The position numbers and the translations under genes were made by a program. From Candidatus Vampirococcus lugosii (lineage in GTDB: Bacteria > Patescibacteriota > Gracilibacteria > Absconditabacterales > Absconditicoccaceae): a stretch of DNA of 13,066 nucleotides. Below the pieces are notes generated by a model. It saw only the letters and a program-made list of their open reading frames with translations. It was not told the DNA's origin and did not search any database. Every line of letters starts with the position of its first letter. Positions within the stretch are counted from its first letter, which is position 1. Of this stretch, positions 2,744 to 13,066 are shown in pieces. The stretch lies in the NCBI RefSeq assembly GCF_018420025.1, contig NZ_JAEDAM010000030.1, positions 1 to 13,066 of the forward strand. Reading direction: 5' to 3'.

Positions 2744-5700
2744 ATGCATAATTTCTTAAATAAAATATTTTGGTTTATATTAATATTATTTATATTGATT
2801 TTTTTATTTTTATCTAATGAATTTGAAGGTCTTTGATTTATTGTTATTATTATTTTAATAACATTAAAATTAACTTATTTTTCAAAAGAAAATATAGAAA
2901 AACAAATTAAAGAATATAAAAATAATATTAAACAAGAAATAATAAATGAGTTAAATATTGAAATAAATAATTCTACATATACAAAAGAACAAGAAACTAC
3001 AGTTGATAAAGAACAAGAAGAATATGTTGATAATCAAAATATTAATTATGATAATTCTTTTGCTGAAACAAAAGAAAATATATTGACAAATAATAATATT
3101 AAAAATAATAATTTAGACAATAGTATAAAAGATAATAATTTAGATAATAATTCTTTTGCTGAAACAAAAGAAAATATATTGATAAATAATGATATAAAAG
3201 ATAATAATTTAGACAATAGTATAAAAGATAATAATTTATCTATATCTGAAATAGATGAAAATGAAAAAGATGAAAATGAAAAAGATGATAATTTAACATT
3301 AGATCTTAAAATAAAATATTCTATAAAATCATTTTTTTCAACAAATATAATGGCAAAGATATGATGAATACTTTTGTCATTATGATTATTGTTTTTTATG
3401 AGTTTAATTTATACTTATTTAAATGATTTTGCAAAAATAATTATATGATTTTCATTCTGATTTATTTTATTTTTATGAGCTTTTTATTTATGAAAAAAAT
3501 GATATTCACTTGAAAGTAAAATATTATTTTGAGTTTCAATTCTTATAAATTATATTGTTATACTTTCTGGTAGATTTATATTGGGTTGAGAAGATTGATA
3601 TTTATGACCTATTCTAACTTTTATTTTATTATTAATGAATACATGATTTTCTGTATATATATCATATACTATAAAATCAAATAATATTTTATTATTTTCA
3701 ATATTTTTTGCATATATTATTCCATTTTTAATTTGATGAGAAGATAGTGCAAATAATATTTTATTAATTATTATATATTCTGTATTTATAAGTTTAGCTT
3801 CATTAGCTTCTTCATATATTAAAAATAAAAATTGAGAAGAATGAACTAGTATTGTATTAAATTATTTTAGTATCATATTATGATCATTGCTTATATTAAC
3901 TACTTCCATTTCTACAAGTCATGAATATTTATTTATATTACAGCTTTTGTGATTTAATTTAATTGTATTTTTAAATATATATTTTGCATATACTAATAAT
4001 TACAAAAAACATATTATAAATATGTTTGTAGCATCTTTTGTATTATTATTATTATTTTTAATTGTTTGAGTTTCTTCCCTTTGAGAATGAATTCAAAATA
4101 TATGGATTATATTATCATATGTATTTTCATTATTTTGAATAAATATATTTATATTGTATTTAGTTTTATCTTGATTTATTGTTTGACAAATTATTTATTT
4201 GTTTTATGTTTCTTTATTTCTTTTCTTTGTATTTGTATTAAGTTTTAATAATTTATTGTTTTTTTATTTTATATTCCCATTGATTCTATTTTTAAAATTT
4301 TTGATATTGTATTTAATATTTTATAAATCTTGAAAAAAAACTCAATTTTATATATTTATTATATTAATATGAGTTTTCATATTATATAATAATTGATATT
4401 TATTTATGAATAATTCATATGAAATAACATTGATTAATTATTTTATGATATTTTTTACTTCATTAATATATTTACTATTTTCATACTTTTTTTCTTTCAA
4501 AAAATGATATAATTTTTTATATGTTTTATGAACTTATTTTTTCATAGCTATTTTTACACCTTTTATAGATTATGAATCTAGCAATATTATTTATACTTTA
4601 TTCTTTATAATAATTTTTAATATACTTAGTTTCTCTCTTCCTATTTTTAATAAAAATTTGATAGAATATAATATATACAGTCTTATCAAATGACTTTTGG
4701 TTTCTATATTGTATGTTATATTTTCATATTATGAATTACGAAATTCTTTTTGAATTTCTATTAATTTTTGATATTTTGTTATTTTAATTTCAATTATATG
4801 TTTTATAATTTGATATTATATTAGTATCAAAAATAATATAAATATACTCTCTAATGAGAAACTAGAAGAAAAACAAGAAAATATAAGAAATTCTTCGTAT
4901 TTATATATTTTTAGTTCAGTTCTTATATTTATGCTTTCAATTATTATTATTTTTTCTGATAATATATATTGAATTGATGCTTTTGCACGGCTTTGTATAT
5001 CATCTATTGTATTTTTACTTTATAGTAGAACTTCTATACATAAATTATTAGTTTTTTGAATAATAATTTTTACTATGTGAATAATAAAATATTTTGCATC
5101 TCTTTGAGAAATTGTAAATAGTTCTTCATATGAAATATATTATATTTTTTCATTTTTAATTATATTGTTAATTCTTTATATAAATATAATAAAAACTAAA
5201 AAAGCAAAAGATAATTATCTTTATTATATATATTTTCTTCATTTTTTATGAATATTAATTACATATGGTGGAATATATGTTATTTTAAATTCGTATTTTG
5301 ATGTTAATTTATTAGTTTATTTATGAATTGTTAATTTAATTTCATATATATCATATAAAGAATTAAATTTTCCTTTATTATTAAAAGTTAATTGATTTAT
5401 TATTTATATGATAACTTTTTTTCAATTATTTATAACAAATTTAATAAATCCATATTTTTATAATTATATATTTACATTAATTATTTTAATAATATCATTT
5501 TTAGATATTTATTATTACAAATTAAAATATAAATATTTAACATATATATTAATAATATATATATTATTAATATCTTCAATTTATATATATAACATTGTTG
5601 GTAATCATATTGCACTAACTATATATTGGTGATTAATATCTTTATTTTCTATATATTATTGATTTATTTTTATGAATCCTATATATAGATCTTTTGGTTT

Positions 5701-5893
5701 ATTGATTATTTCAATTACTATTACTAAAATGTTAATGTATGATATATGGGCTAATTTAGATAATTGAGTTATAAGAGTTTTTGCATTTATGTTAATATGA
5801 AGTATAATGATATATTTATCAATGTTATATTGAAAATATAAAATATCTGCAAAATCTGATTTCAATATACTGATAGATAAGTTAAAAAATTAG
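2744..5893 (+). CDS. DUF2339-like giant polytopic membrane protein (1049 aa) with an N-terminal Asn/Asp/Lys-rich low-complexity insert
   Basis: ATG 2744 is the first start after the in-frame TAA at 2726-2728. The frame was verified codon by codon to TAG at 5891-5893 and contains 47 in-frame TGA by hand count. Layout: N-terminal TM helix (FWFILILFILIFLFL), about 170 aa of charged low-complexity sequence, then many hydrophobic segments. The C-terminus RSFGLLIISITITKMLMYDIWANLDNGVIRVFAFMLIGSIMIYLSMLYGKY resembles the conserved DUF2339 C-terminal motif (from memory). The standard-code ORFs 3083..3364 and 5408..5632 are in-frame fragments. Confidence 0.8.
3053..3238 (+). repeat. In-frame 96-nt (32-codon) tandem duplication inside the DUF2339-like CDS
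   Basis: Copy 1 (3053-3148) encodes NSFAETKENILTNNNIKNNNLDNSIKDNNLDN. Copy 2 (3149-3238) encodes NSFAETKENILINNDIKDNNLDNSIKDNNL. There are only a few substitutions between them. Just downstream, GATGAAAATGAAAAA is repeated twice (DENEKDENEK). Confidence 0.85.
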
Positions 5894-8790: not shown

Positions 8791-9240
8791 TTATTTTTCT
8801 ATAGATTTATCTATTTTTTCTGATGATGATGCCAAACTAGCAATAATTATTTTTCAATCTATAAACTTATATATAGGTATAATAAAAAGTCTAATTAATA
8901 AAAGAATAGCAATAAAATAGAATATAAAAACATATTCAAAATCTTCTCAAAAATCTTCTATTCAAAAATAGTCAACAAATATAATATATGAAATTATTAT
9001 ATTCATAATCTCCAAAAGAATAAGTACAGTTCAATCATCATTAAAATTTCTTATATACTTAATATATTCTTTTGTTATATTTATTTTAGAAACTTTTTTC
9101 TTATATTTTTGAAATATTTCATTTCAAGGATAATATTTATTTGCAAAATTGACCAAATTTTTACATCTAATATAATCTTTATCTTGCCAAGATTTTTTTA
9201 TCATTTGTTCCAAATTCATTTCATGTACTGGATTTTTCAT
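8791..9240 (-). CDS. Small membrane protein, paralog A (149 aa): about 70-aa soluble N-domain plus two predicted TM helices
   Basis: ATG at 9240, TAA at 8791-8793, frame checked codon by codon. The N-terminal part is MKNPVHEMNLEQMIKKSWQDKDYIRCKNLVNFANKYYPGNEIFQKYKKKVSKINITKEYIKYIRNFNDDG. The rest is TVLILLEIMNIIISYIIFVDYFGIEDFGEDFEYVFIFYFIAILLLIRLFIIPIYKFIDGKIIIASLASSSEKIDKSIEK. It ends 8 nt before the rsmE start. No family recognised. Confidence 0.75.
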
Positions 9241-9318: not shown

Positions 9319-9714
9319 TTAATAACTTAAAACTTTTTTTCAATAAATAATATTATAAATAGAAAAAATATTAAATCTAATTAATAAAAGAATAGCAATA
9401 AAATAAAATATAAATGTATATTCAAAATTTTCTATTCAAAAAAATTTAATAAATATTAGATATGTAAAATATATACTAATAACTTCCAAAATAATAAATA
9501 AAATTCAATTATCATTAAAATTTCTTACATATCTAATATATTCTTTTTTTATATTTATTTTAGAAATTTTTCTTTTATATTTTTGTCATATTTCATTTCA
9601 AGGATAATATTTATTTGCAAAATTGACTAGATTTTTGCATCTAATATAATCTCTATTTTTCCAAGATTTTTTTATCATTTGTTCCAAATACATTTCTTGT
9701 ACTGGATTTTTCAT
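9319..9714 (-). CDS. Small membrane protein, paralog B (131 aa), tandem duplicate of 8791..9240
   Basis: ATG at 9714, TAA at 9319-9321, frame checked codon by codon. The N-terminal part is MKNPVQEMYLEQMIKKSWKNRDYIRCKNLVNFANKYYPGNEIGQKYKRKISKINIKKEYIRYVRNFNDNG. The rest is ILFIILEVISIYFTYLIFIKFFGIENFEYTFIFYFIAILLLIRFNIFSIYNIIYGKKVLSY. 58 of the first 70 residues are identical to paralog A. Confidence 0.75.
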
Positions 9715-9740
9715 TTTATTTATAAATTATTATAAATAAA

Positions 9741-10733
9741 TTATTTTATTTTAGAAATCTTAATTTTTTCATCTAACTGATCTTGAACAGATTTTAATAA
9801 CTTAGGACTTTCTTTTAATAAATTTGAAAGATTTTCTTTTCATTGTACTTTTTTGTCTCATACTGAATAAAATGCTCCTGATCTTTGAATTATATCAAAA
9901 AACATAGCAGCATCCAATAGATCAGACATTTTATCAATTCATTGATTAAATTTAACAGTTATTTCAGCAGTTTTAAATGGAGGTGAAATTTTATTTTTAA
10001 CAACTTTAATTTTAGCTTTATATCATATTTGTTCTTTATCTTCTTCTATCTTTTCTCACCTTCTAATTTCTATTCTTTGAGATGCAAAAAATTTAAGTGC
10101 ATTTCATCCAGATGTAACTTCAGGACTTCAAAATATAACACCTATTTTACTCCTTATTTGATTAATAAAAATAACAGTAGTACCAGTTTTGGAAAGAACT
10201 CAAGCTAATTTTCTTAAACCTTGTGACATAAGTCTTGCTTGTAATCACATATGACTGTCTCCCATATCTCATTCTATTTCAGCTTTTGGAACTAATGCTG
10301 CAACACTATCAATAACTATTAATTTAATAATTCATGTTTGTGCCAATTCTTGTGCAATTTGTAAAGCTTGTTCACCATAATCAGGTTGTGATAAAAGTAA
10401 ATCATCAGTTTTTACTCATAATTTTTTTGCATATTCTGGATCCAAAGCATGTTCTGCATCAATAAATGCAGCCATTTCTCATTTTTTTTGTATTTCTGAA
10501 ATGGCATGTAATGCAAATGTTGTTTTACCACTACTTTCAGGTCAATAAATTTCAACAATCCTACCATGAGGATAACCACCACCAACTATAGTATTCATAA
10601 TATATGATCATGTAGAAAATGTACTTATCTTACCATAATCAATATTGTCTCATAATCTCATTATAGATCATTTTCAAAATTCTTTTTCAATACTTTTGAA
10701 TGCATCAGTTAATATTTGTTTTTTATCTGTCAT
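9741..10733 (-). CDS. recA: Recombinase RecA, 330 aa
   Basis: The translation starts MTDKKQILTDAFKSIEKEFGKGSIMRLGD. It contains [28 protein letters not shown] (Walker A), [99 protein letters not shown] and KVVKNKISPPFKTAEI. About 18 in-frame TGA all fall at conserved RecA glycines. Length is 993 nt and it ends at TAA (9741-9743). Confidence 0.97.
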
Positions 10734-10761
10734 AATTATTATTTAATTTATAAATTTAACA

Positions 10762-11448
10762 CTATGATTGTTCTTTATGTGAATTTGGATTATTAACTTT
10801 GAATAATAAAGATACTATTTCATTTATATCTAATTTTTCACAAAATAATCAAATTCACTTCAATCATTCTTCAACTATATTTGTTCTTACATCCAAATGT
10901 TTTTTATTCTTTACAAAATTTCTATATCTACTTACAACTTTTTCTGGATTTTCTTTTGAATCTAAAACATCCATCAATTTTTTCCACCAAGGCTTAGATA
11001 TTTCTTGAGTATCATTAGCACCATGATAATAAGGTATTATCACATAAAATTCTTTAGTATATATTAATCATTGATTAGAATTTATTTTTTCAAGATAATT
11101 ATAATATTCTTTACCTTGTCGTTTCAAAACATCATTTTCAATTCCATCAATTTTTTCTTCAATGAAAGAAATGTAATCAGTAAGATCAAGATAAGTACTG
11201 CGAGCTAATATTTGTATAGAAAAATCTAATCAATTTATAAATCTTTTGTACTGTTCTATAACTACTTGTTGTTCATCATAATTTCTAAGATCAAGATTTA
11301 ATCAAAAGACTTTAATAATAGATCTTAATCATCAATCTTTTAATATAACTACATTATTTCTTATCTCTGATATATCCAATAGATTCTCTGTATTAAATTG
11401 ATTTTCATTTTGTTTAGATTTTTTAATTTTTTTAGCTTCGTCATACAT
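10762..11448 (-). CDS. Hypothetical protein (228 aa) resembling the N-terminal non-ATPase region of VirB4/TraE-type (Gram-positive style) conjugation ATPases; no ATPase domain present
   Basis: ATG 11448 is the first start after the in-frame TAA at 11455-11457. TAG is at 10762-10764 and the frame was checked codon by codon. Translation: MYDEAKKIKKSKQNENQFNTENLLDISEIRNNVVILKDGGLRSIIKVFGLNLDLRNYDEQQVVIEQYKRFINGLDFSIQILARSTYLDLTDYI...KEFYVIIPYY...GLFCEKLDINEIVSLLFKVNNPNSHKEQS. The CDS call is solid. The family resemblance is pattern recognition from memory only. Confidence 0.75.
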
Positions 11449-11502
11449 TTTTAATTATACAATCTTTTTAATATAAAATTAACAAAACTTTTATCAAACA
11501 TA

Positions 11503-12690
11503 TTATTTCAATAAATCCTCAAACAAAGTATCTAAATCAATTTCTTCATCTTCATCTTCATTTTCATCAACAGAATTTAATTCAGATATTTTAACTTCAA
11601 ACTCATTTTTTATATTCAATAATATTGCATATATCAAATTTCTATTTTGAAATGAAAGATTAAAAGATTCAACTTGAGAAAATATACTTGATAATTTTTC
11701 CAACTTATCAGACAAAATTTCTGAATCTTCTATATTTTTAACATAATTTTGAGTCATTAATTTTATATCTTGATATTCTTGTTTATTTTTAGTATTAAGT
11801 CTATTAAACATATTATCTACTTCTTTTTTCCTTTCAGATAAACTTTTTTCAGCTTTTTCAGATAAAGTTTCTCTGTTTATTTCTATATTTTCATTATTTT
11901 CTATGTTTTCATTATTTTCTATATTTTCATCATTTATATTTTCAAATCAAACTTCCAAAACTTTTCAATTCCACCATCATAAAGTAATATCAGCTTGATA
12001 AAAATTATTTCAATCTGTATAAGAAACTCTAGCAGTATTTGATTCAATCCAATCTATATTTGTAACTTCAAAATATTCTTTACCAATAGGTTCATAACTA
12101 GACATAGATGTTATATATCTATGTATATGATTATTGTATATTTTAGTAAAATCTAAACTATTAATATATTCTTCTGTATATATTTCTTCTGGACTTTTTC
12201 CTTCAATATTTTCTTCTTCAACATTTTCTTCTTCAACATTTTCTTCTTCAACATTTTCTTCTTCAATATTTTCTTCTTCAATATTTTCTTCTTCAATATT
12301 TTCTTCTTCAATATTTTCTTCTTCAATATTTTCTTCTTCAACATTTTCTTCTTCAATATTTTCTTCTTCAATATTTTCTTCTTCAACATTTTCTTCTTCA
12401 ATATTTTCTTCTTCAACATTTTCTTCTTCAACATTTTCTTCTTCAATATTTTCTTCTTCAATATTTTCTTCTTTAATATTTTCTTCTTCAATATTTTCTT
12501 CTTTAATATTTTCTTCTTCAATATTTTCTTCTTCAATATTTTCTTCTTCAATATTTTCGTTATCTTGTTCCGCTCTTTCAAGTTCTTCTCTAAGAGCATC
12601 CAAATCATTATCTAAATAATCTTGAGAACTAACAAAATGTGTACCAAAAACAACTATAACAAAAAATGTAAATATAATATTTCTTTGCAT
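11503..12690 (-). CDS. Secreted hyper-acidic tandem-repeat protein (395 aa): signal peptide, 24 x (E-E-N-I/V-E) pentapeptides, small globular domain, ENIENN repeats, coiled-coil-like acidic C-terminus
   Basis: ATG at 12690, TAA at 11503-11505, 1188 nt. The standard-code ORFs 12010..12690 and 11503..11811 are in the same frame and join through TGA=Gly at 12010-12012 (...ARVSYTD-G-NNFYQADITLGWWNGKVLEVGFENI...). The joining segment was checked codon by codon. The N-terminus MQRNIIFTFFVIVVFGTHFVSSQDY looks like a Sec signal peptide. Confidence 0.8.
11881..11934 (-). repeat. 18-nt tandem repeat x3 (encodes the NDENIE/NNENIE hexapeptides) inside the acidic protein CDS
   Basis: Plus-strand units are TTCTATATTTTCATTATT (11881), TTCTATGTTTTCATTATT (11899) and TTCTATATTTTCATCATT (11917). 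Confidence 0.85.
12199..12558 (-). repeat. 15-nt in-frame tandem repeat x24 (plus strand TTCTTCTTCAAYATT type) encoding ENIEE/ENVEE/ENIKE pentapeptides
   Basis: 360 nt of head-to-tail 15-mers, read directly. The only variable positions are AAT/AAC (Ile/Val) and TTC/TTT (Glu/Lys) on the plus strand. All three frames on both strands lack standard-code stops here, which produces the overlapping artefact ORFs in the track. Confidence 0.95.
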
Positions 12691-12727
12691 TAATCTTTTA
12701 ATTTAAATTATAAAAATTTATATAAAC

Positions 12728-12755
12728 ATTATAATAAAGAAATTAAATAATTCAA
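12728..12755 (-). promoter_or_regulatory. Candidate promoter TTGAAT-16 nt-TATAAT for the acidic repeat protein gene / minus-strand gene run
   Basis: On the minus strand, TTGAAT lies at 12755-12750 and TATAAT at 12733-12728, with a 16-nt spacer, about 37 nt upstream of the ATG at 12690. These are the same hexamers and spacing as the dnaK candidate. The AT-rich background applies here too. Confidence 0.4.
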
Positions 12756-12772
12756 GTAATTTTTATTTTTTT

Positions 12773-12799
12773 GTGCCAGCAATGTTAAATTGTTGGTAC
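12773..12799. promoter_or_regulatory. Imperfect 10-bp-arm palindrome GTGCCAGCAA-N7-TTGTTGGTAC, an isolated G/C-containing element in an AT-rich intergenic region
   Basis: Left arm 12773-12782, loop TGTTAAA, right arm 12790-12799. Eight Watson-Crick pairs plus two positions that are G-T on the plus strand and A-C on the minus strand. It sits 18 nt upstream of the candidate -35 at 12750-12755. Confidence 0.35.
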
Positions 12800-12994
12800 A
12801 AATAAGATCTTTTTTAATTTTTAATAAACAATATTATGTATTTATATATTAAATATATTTTAGGTAATATAAAAATATTTTGTTGAGTTTAAGAATTATT
12901 ATTTGATTTTTATATTAATTATTTATACTATTATTGACATTTTAATTTTTTATTAATATTTTAAACTTGCTGTTAAAATATTTATTTTAATATA

Positions 12995-13066
12995 CTAAAA
13001 TTCATTATTCAAAAAAGTATTTAATTTTTGTTCAAAATCATCATAAACATTAATTATAGAATCTAT
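12995..13066 (-). CDS. Possible 3' end of a CDS entering from the right edge (23 codons)
   Basis: The minus-strand frame is open from the window edge to TAG (12995-12997) and reads IDSIINVYDDFEQKLNTFLNNEF. It is too short to identify or to exclude chance. Confidence 0.3.
   Translation of the reverse strand: MDSIINVYDDFEQKLNTFLNNEF

What the first reader, a model, noticed from the sequence alone, without database searches (positions are those of the whole stretch)
10762..11448. Stand-alone VirB4/TraE-like N-terminal domain encoded immediately upstream of recA
The 228-aa product follows the sequence pattern I associate with the N-terminal, pre-ATPase part of Gram-positive-type VirB4 conjugation ATPases. 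The pattern starts with a basic N-terminus, followed by L-D-I-x-E-I-R-N-x-V-V-I-L-K-D-G-G-L-R-x-I-I-K-V. Next come N-L-D-L plus a D-E-Q-Q segment, then a Q-I-L-x-R-S hydrophobic strand. It ends with a late F-Y-V-I-I-P-Y block and a C-terminal I-V-S-L-L-F-K-V-N-N-P. The protein stops before any Walker A ATPase domain, and the next gene 28 nt downstream is recA. So it is either a decayed remnant of a type IV secretion ATPase, a split gene, or a domain recruited to a new role next to the recombinase. The link to DNA-transfer machinery would be notable in a reduced genome.
Basis: inference. Interest (0 to 1): 0.6.

Follow-up and report, generated by a model that had tools for sequence, protein, structure and literature searches.

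The report
Detached VirB4 front piece (TrsD)
This small gene encodes TrsD, the free-standing front part of the type IV secretion motor VirB4 that nearly all ultra-small Patescibacteria carry; it is intact, already described in the literature, and its position beside recA is a local quirk of a few close relatives.

Summary

- **Identity.** It is a TrsD-like protein, a stand-alone copy of the first part of the VirB4 N-terminal domain. Evidence: NCBIfam VirB4_plasma E 4.9e-14 and TrsD E 3.7e-8, and an AlphaFold model that matches R388 TrwK/VirB4 residues about 10-240 at Z 10-12.
- **Not a remnant.** It was found as a roughly 230-aa frame in 143 of 151 sampled genomes of its class and 114 of 121 of its phylum, never in a frame long enough to include the ATPase.
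- **The ATPase.** An intact 690-aa VirB4 lies on another contig and matches only TrwK 219-755, so the two proteins are complementary pieces.
- **Gene order.** Outside the class the order is prgI-trsD-virB4 in 24 of 25 loci, as on two Firmicutes plasmids checked.
- **recA.** recA lies within the 1.5-kb flanks in only 3 of 30 loci, all in one family, so no recombinase link is supported.
- **Prior knowledge.** TrsD in Patescibacteria, and its detachment from virB4 in Gracilibacteria, were published in 2025 (PMC12102498). This scan has also found it many times on other DNA.

Verdict: real, functional and ordinary.

The parts
10762..11448 (-). trsD-like gene: 228-aa stand-alone protein equivalent to the first part of the VirB4 N-terminal domain (table 25, 8 TGA=Gly)
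   Evidence: Translation. NCBIfam NF045975 E 4.9e-14 (profile positions 90-233 of 894) and NF041427 TrsD E 3.7e-8. AF2 model pLDDT 78.5. Foldseek top 12 hits are all TrwK/VirB4. VIA Z 11.9 and 10.2 on TrwK residues 10-340 and 15-239.
10734..10761 (-). 28-nt A+T-rich spacer between trsD and recA, with no terminator-like hairpin
   Evidence: Sequence. The terminator scan found none in 9500-13066. Co-transcription is inferred, not shown.
9741..10733 (-). recA, the downstream neighbour; context only, not part of the secretion system
   Evidence: Pfam RecA E 2.9e-122. recA within the 1.5-kb flank of trsD only in G000, G138 and G114 out of 30 loci.
11503..12690 (-). Upstream neighbour: 395-aa protein with a hydrophobic, signal-peptide-like N-terminus (by eye) and about 24 copies of a 15-bp repeat encoding (EEENI/V)n; context only
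   Evidence: Translation. Tandem repeat 12201-12558, period 15, 23.9 copies. No Pfam family. Not present at this position in the closest relative G138, where efp lies upstream.

Best explanation
[quoted passage not shown] It is the first sub-domain of the VirB4 N-terminal domain made as a separate polypeptide. The rest of VirB4 (second part of the N-domain plus the ATPase domain) is an intact 690-aa gene on contig C96. Inferred mechanism: TrsD binds the shortened VirB4 in trans and restores a complete N-terminal domain. In the R388 structure that domain is wrapped by VirB3 and mediates VirB4 dimer contacts, so TrsD would dock the ATPase to PrgI/VirB3 at the membrane and help assemble the inner-membrane complex that drives pilin and substrate handling. 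In this lineage the system's genes are scattered, and trsD has come to lie in front of recA through local rearrangement.
For: Shown here:
- Homology to the VirB4 N-terminus by profile.
- VirB4 N-domain fold: Z 11.9, rmsd 3.9 over 185 residues; and Z 10.2, rmsd 3.0 over 168 residues on TrwK 15-239. The best unrelated chain scores Z 6.2.
- The partner VirB4 (P0124) passes the NF045971 cut-off but covers only profile positions 183-733 of 752. Its model aligns to TrwK 219-755, so the two pieces are complementary with a junction near TrwK 220-240.
- No profile-profile similarity between the two families, so TrsD is not a detectable duplicate of the part VirB4 keeps.
- Order prgI-trsD-virB4 in 24 of 25 loci from other classes. 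The same triad, with the trsD-like and virB4 ORFs overlapping, occurs on Pontibacillus and B. thuringiensis plasmids.
- prgI lies directly upstream in 15 of 15 standard-code class relatives, and T4SS pilin genes lie upstream in 11 of 15 family loci.
- trsD in 143 of 151 class genomes and virB4 in 145 of 151; both in 139.

From the literature:
- TrsD is the most abundant T4SS component in Patescibacteria, usually sits near virB4 except in Gracilibacteria, and is listed as essential in Southlakia epibionticum (PMC12102498).
- VirB3 wraps the VirB4 N-domain, which also makes the VirB4 dimer interface (PMC9259494).
Against: - No physical interaction between TrsD and VirB4 or PrgI has been shown in any system, and no function is assigned to TrsD even in pGO1 (PMC12102498).
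- In this genome trsD, virB4 and prgI lie on three different contigs, so there is no local operon support.
- The match to the curated TrsD model is far below its cut-off (33 vs 200 bits).
- The P0124 model is only moderately confident (pLDDT 61), and its TrwK alignments have rmsd 10-11 A over the two domains together.
- 6 sampled genomes had virB4 but no trsD hit and 4 the reverse. Some are incomplete assemblies, but three of these 10 are rated 100% complete (G006, G025) or 99% (G071).
Confidence: 0.8

Rival explanations
1. TrsD has become functionally independent of VirB4 in this class. For example, it could act as an adaptor for pilin or PrgI handling, or for another ATPase such as the VirD4-like proteins, rather than completing the VirB4 N-domain.
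For: In much of the class trsD is unlinked from virB4 but stays next to prgI or pilin genes. Four sampled genomes had trsD without a virB4 hit, and one of them (G025) is rated 100% complete. The published survey also notes the uncoupling in Gracilibacteria (PMC12102498).
Against: Co-occurrence is near-complete (139 of 151). Some families of the same class still have trsD directly before virB4, for example G019, G058, G046 and G021 (coordinates). The class's VirB4 still lacks the segment that TrsD supplies, so it would be left with an incomplete N-domain.
Confidence: 0.12
2. The trsD-recA pairing is functional: the two are co-transcribed so that secretion-system or DNA-transfer activity is coupled to recombination.
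For: 28-nt gap, same strand, no terminator-like hairpin. The pairing is shared by the sister genome G138 (about 20-nt gap) and, with a gap of about 390 nt, by G114.
Against: recA was not within the 1.5-kb flank in 27 of 30 loci, including 12 of 15 in the same family and all 15 other class loci, nor in the 29 loci of the phylum search. On a VirB4 tree the three genomes are not resolved as one clade. The genome is densely packed, so short gaps between unrelated genes are usual. No relaxase is associated with this system (PMC12102498).
Confidence: 0.04
3. The ORF is a decayed remnant of a once full-length VirB4 gene.
For: It ends before any Walker A motif and sits away from other T4SS genes.
Against: It is intact and single-copy in 143 of 151 class genomes and 114 of 121 phylum genomes. 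Identity is 50-68% within the family, and 18 columns stay invariant down to 31% identity. The model is confidently folded. An intact VirB4 lacking exactly this segment exists in the same genome.
Confidence: 0.01

Closest known systems
TrsD homologues of the Patescibacteria-clade T4SS (Quinonero-Coronel et al. 2025, Microb Genom, PMC12102498)
   Same: Stand-alone protein of about 230 aa with remote homology to the VirB4 N-terminus, chromosomal and near-universal in the phylum. The paper explicitly notes that Gracilibacteria-class copies are not encoded near virB4, which is the case here.
   Different: Nothing essential. The paper does not mention the recA neighbourhood. The fold-level complementarity with TrwK (10-240 vs 219-755) was worked out here; I did not check whether it has been published elsewhere.
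TrsD/TrsE of staphylococcal plasmids pGO1/pSK41 (NCBIfam NF041427; MPF-FATA class)
   Same: The same two-gene architecture: a protein of about 200 aa like the VirB4 N-terminus, plus a shortened VirB4 ATPase. The NF041427 profile matches residues 26-99 at E 3.7e-8. The same triad PrgI / TrsD-like / VirB4 was seen on Pontibacillus and B. thuringiensis plasmids.
   Different: The score is far below the subfamily cut-off (33 vs 200 bits). The gene here is chromosomal, belongs to a system reported as largely relaxase-less (PMC12102498), and is not adjacent to its ATPase. I did not fetch pGO1/pSK41 itself.
N-terminal domain of full-length VirB4 (R388 TrwK, PDB 8RTD/8RTB/7O43; Mace et al. 2022, PMC9259494)
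   Same: The fold of residues about 10-240 (Z 10-12). In TrwK this region belongs to the N-domain that VirB3 wraps and that forms the VirB4 dimer interface.
   Different: Here it is a separate polypeptide with 11-14% identity. TrwK carries it fused to the rest of the N-domain and to the ATPase.

Membership tests
TrsD/TraD family (NCBIfam NF041427, subfamily model) | Score at or above the curated cut-off (200 bits) | tested here: not met
   33.4 bits, E 3.7e-8, residues 26-99 on profile 21-99 of 201. Homologous, but outside the narrow plasmid subfamily.
TrsD-like proteins of the Patescibacteria T4SS (sensu PMC12102498) | Stand-alone protein of about 200-250 aa with significant similarity to TrsD and the VirB4 N-terminus, and no ATPase motifs | tested here: met
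   228 aa with no Walker A. NF045975 E 4.9e-14 and NF041427 E 3.7e-8. Matching frames are 206-506 aa in the 143 class and 114 phylum genomes with a full-length match, apart from a few fragmentary hits.
TrsD-like proteins of the Patescibacteria T4SS (sensu PMC12102498) | A Patescibacteria-type VirB4 and other T4SS parts in the same genome | tested here: met
   Intact 690-aa VirB4 on C96, NF045971 339.5 bits vs cut-off 325. prgI-like gene on C71. Seven T4SS_pilin matches, two above the Pfam cut-off.
TrsD-like proteins of the Patescibacteria T4SS (sensu PMC12102498) | Encoded next to virB4 (the usual arrangement, not universal) | tested here: not met
   virB4 is on another contig. This is the published exception for Gracilibacteria. 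The arrangement is met in 24 of 25 loci from other classes.
VirB4 N-terminal domain fold | Structural match to the N-domain of a solved VirB4, standing clear of unrelated folds | tested here: met
   Z 11.9, 10.6, 10.3, 10.2 and 9.7 to five TrwK entries, against 6.2 for the next chain. Foldseek probability 1.0, E 5e-4.
VirB4/TraC/CagE ATPase family (full-length) | Walker A/B P-loop ATPase domain | tested here: not met
   No P-loop in the 228 aa. No ATPase family hit in Pfam.
Pfam PF26593 (precomputed label on the homologues) | Match to the Pfam model | not testable with these tools
   All 120 listed homologues, including one 96% identical, carry PF26593. The model is not in the local Pfam copy, so its name and cut-off could not be checked.

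The most novel reading that the evidence does not exclude
In the lineage of this genome and its sister G138 (and perhaps G114), trsD and recA form one transcript, so that production of the VirB4-completing subunit, and hence assembly of the secretion or uptake machine, is regulated together with recombination. That would hint that the relaxase-less T4SS of these predatory bacteria handles DNA taken from prey.
Probability: 0.04. Interest if true: 0.6.

Novelty: already known. Interest (0 to 1): 0.12.

Why it matters
It does little beyond correcting the annotation. The gene should be called a TrsD-like T4SS protein (VirB4 N-terminal module), not a truncated or decayed VirB4, and its position beside recA should not be read as a functional link. 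The useful by-product is a concrete, testable picture of TrsD, a protein with no assigned function: by fold it equals TrwK residues about 10-240, and the partner VirB4 starts where it ends. So TrsD is predicted to be the part of the motor that meets PrgI/VirB3. Because the patescibacterial T4SS is essential for epibiotic growth in the one strain tested (PMC12102498), that prediction is worth testing in a tractable strain, though not specifically at this locus.

Tried and rejected
- Pfam scan of the protein: only a sub-threshold DUF3781 hit.
- PDB sequence searches with the single protein and with the family profile: nothing meaningful.
- Search for longer, fused relatives: none at E<=1e-3 among 2814 candidates. 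This is weak evidence, as the tool itself says.
- PF26593 could not be looked up because it is not in the local Pfam copy.
A recA further than 1.5 kb away would have been missed.
- Promoter scan: uninformative in DNA with about 20% G+C (37 sites against 35.3 expected).
- Pfam PrgI model on the own genome: no hit. A profile built from class relatives did find a prgI-like gene on C71.
- Paralogue idea (TrsD as a duplicate of the N-part that VirB4 keeps): hhalign probability 0.3%. The two regions have a similar order of strands and helices in the models, but I could not superpose two models with these tools.
- Single origin of the recA adjacency: neither shown nor excluded. G000 and G138 are sisters (support 100/99), and G114 sits in an unresolved fork.

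Full report
**Observation.**
The window has about 15-30% G+C and is almost free of ORFs under table 11, but densely coding under table 25. recA (9741-10733, -) carries 18 in-frame TGA codons, one of them in its GPESSGKT Walker A motif. This supports TGA=Gly.

Under that code 10762-11448 (-) is a 228-aa ORF with 8 TGA=Gly. recA begins 28 nt downstream on the same strand.

**What the protein is.**
- Pfam gave nothing.
- NCBIfam matched the N-terminal part of a Gram-positive/mycoplasma VirB4 model: NF045975, E 4.9e-14, protein residues 6-138 on profile positions 90-233 of 894. It also matched the TrsD/TraD model NF041427 (E 3.7e-8), well below the curated cut-offs of both models.
- An AlphaFold2 model built on a 34-sequence alignment (A1) has mean pLDDT 78.5.
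- The top twelve Foldseek matches in the PDB are all TrwK/VirB4 of plasmid R388 (probability 0.94-1.0; best E 5e-4).
- VIA-align gives Z 11.9 (rmsd 3.9 A, 185 residues, TrwK 10-340) and Z 10.2 (rmsd 3.0 A, 168 residues, TrwK 15-239). The best unrelated chain scores Z 6.2.
- The TrwK N-terminal domain spans residues 15-400 (PMC9259494). So the protein corresponds to the first part of that domain.

**Not a remnant.**
- There are 590 database homologues of about 230 aa. The 120 listed are 50-96% identical, and all carry the precomputed label PF26593, which is missing from the local Pfam copy.
- Six-frame searches found the gene in 143 of 151 sampled genomes of the class (130 of 132 high-quality ones) and in 114 of 121 sampled genomes of the phylum. 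Full-length matches lie in open frames of 206-506 aa, too short to hold a fused ATPase.
- A word-based search for longer relatives found none, which is weak evidence.
- Eighteen alignment columns are invariant down to 31% identity.

**The other half.**
- The same genome has an intact 690-aa VirB4 on contig C96.
- It passes the curated cut-off of NF045971 (CD1110-type VirB4-like ATPase; 339.5 vs 325 bits), but covers only profile positions 183-733 of 752. On NF045975 it covers positions 277-893 of 894. TrsD covers 90-233 of that same model.
- Its AlphaFold model is only moderate (pLDDT 61). It aligns to the T. pseudethanolicus VirB4 C-domain at Z 28.3, and to TrwK over chain residues 219-755 (model 135-665, Z 18.1, rmsd 11 A because two domains are superposed together).
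- TrsD (TrwK about 10-240) and this VirB4 (TrwK about 219-755) are therefore complementary pieces.
- A profile-profile comparison of the two families found no similarity (probability 0.3%). TrsD is thus not a detectable copy of the part VirB4 keeps.

**Gene context elsewhere.**
- In 25 loci from other classes of the phylum, 24 have virB4 directly after trsD, in the order prgI-trsD-virB4 wherever the upstream flank was readable. The exception is cut off by a contig end.
- On a Pontibacillus plasmid and on B. thuringiensis Bt407 plasmid BTB_502p the same layout occurs: a small upstream gene (annotated PrgI family on the Bt407 plasmid), a hypothetical TrsD-like gene, then a VirB4-like ATPase whose start overlaps the TrsD-like stop.
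- Within the window's class the layout varies:
  - All 15 standard-code relatives examined keep prgI directly upstream of trsD, without virB4.
  - Some families still have trsD immediately before virB4, for example G019, G058, G046 and G021.
  - In family f8 the two genes lie about 25-50 kb apart.
  - In the window's own family they lie tens to hundreds of kb apart (coordinates).
- In that family, 11 of 15 loci have T4SS_pilin genes (PF18895) just upstream of trsD; the clustering put two ORFs per locus, and Pfam was run on three examples.
- Co-occurrence in the class sample: virB4 in 145 of 151 genomes, trsD in 143 of 151, both in 139.
- In this genome the parts are scattered:

| Component | Contig |
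|---|---|
| trsD | C89 (this window) |
| virB4, with a weak pilin-like match just downstream (below cut-off) | C96 |
| prgI-like gene | C71 |
| Further pilin-like matches (two above cut-off, on C61 and C23) | C61, C23 (two), C66, C51, C100 |

**recA.**
- recA lies within the 1.5-kb flank of trsD only in this genome, in G138 (gap of about 20 nt) and in G114 (gap of about 390 nt). It is absent from the flanks in the other 12 family loci and in all 15 class loci. It is also absent from the 29 loci returned by the phylum-wide search.
- On a VirB4 tree G000 and G138 are sisters (100/99). G114 sits in an unresolved fork, so one origin is possible but not shown.
- The promoter scan is at chance level, and no terminator-like hairpin occurs in 9500-13066. 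Co-transcription is plausible but unproven.
- I read the adjacency as a local rearrangement in a compact genome.

**Mechanism.**
- Shown: homology, fold, complementarity with the partner ATPase, synteny and co-occurrence.
- From the literature: in R388, VirB3 wraps the VirB4 N-domain, and that domain forms the VirB4 dimer interface (PMC9259494).
- Inferred: TrsD binds the short VirB4 in trans, completes its N-domain and links the ATPase to PrgI/VirB3 at the membrane. The retention of prgI-trsD as a pair even where virB4 has moved away fits this.
- No experiment has assigned a function to TrsD (PMC12102498).

**Comparison with what is known.**
Quinonero-Coronel et al. 2025 (PMC12102498) report 2,272 TrsD homologues in Patescibacteria. 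They describe remote homology to the VirB4 N-terminus and association with virB4 'with the notable exception' of Gracilibacteria. They also note that a TrsD homologue is listed as essential in Southlakia epibionticum. The present gene is one of these.

Earlier notes of this scan reached the same reading on many other genomes. One note on this genome supplied the paper lead.

**Verdict.**
The gene is real and functional, and it is already known. Only the recA neighbourhood is particular to this lineage, and it shows no sign of functional meaning.

Noticed in passing
window 11503-12690 (-), repeat at 12201-12558: A 395-aa protein with a hydrophobic, signal-peptide-like N-terminus (by eye) and about 24 near-perfect 15-bp repeats (96% matches) that encode (EEENI/V)n, plus a second ENIENN repeat. 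It has no Pfam family and is not at this position in the closest relative G138, which has efp there. It may be a length-variable surface protein.
   Followed up: partly
window 8791-9240 (-) and 9319-9714 (-): Two tandem paralogous small proteins (149 and 131 aa) share the N-terminus MKNPV.EM.LEQMIKKSW..DYIRCKNLVNFANKYYPGNEI and a hydrophobic C-terminal half. They lie between recA and rsmE and have no Pfam family.
   Followed up: partly
window 2744-5893 (+): A 1049-aa, very hydrophobic polytopic membrane protein with weak DUF2339/DUF2157 matches, encoded in DNA of about 15% G+C.
   Followed up: no
database homologues P0006, P0010, P0017, P0044, P0105 and others: Several public protein records of this family have W where this protein and its relatives have conserved G (for example KDWWLR against KDGGLR). 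Their source genomes were evidently translated with TGA=Trp (table 4) instead of TGA=Gly (table 25).
   Followed up: no
L001:1483-3555 (-), equal to G000:C96; N-terminus of the 690-aa VirB4: The first 100 or so residues of this family's VirB4 form a lineage-specific, Gly/Lys-rich, low-confidence extension. Within the family most copies begin with a similar N-terminal motif (roughly NxVYDTNYT....GG, varying between copies). Its role is unknown.
   Followed up: no
L001:390-1451 (-) and L001:1-387 (-), downstream of virB4 on C96: Directly after virB4 lie a 353-aa multi-pass membrane protein and a 129-aa protein. The latter has an N-terminal hydrophobic segment (by eye), and a weak T4SS_pilin match (E 0.006, below cut-off) falls in the same stretch of the contig. 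They may be VirB6-like and pilin parts of the same machine.
   Followed up: partly
models mb2fc6554a14d (residues 26-198) and m7db7e3aab98c (residues 139-274): TrsD and the N-proximal region that VirB4 keeps show the same order of secondary-structure elements (three strands, helix, strand, two helices, strand, helix). This hints that the VirB4 N-domain may be an ancient tandem duplication. There is no sequence signal for it, and the two models could not be superposed here.
   Followed up: partly
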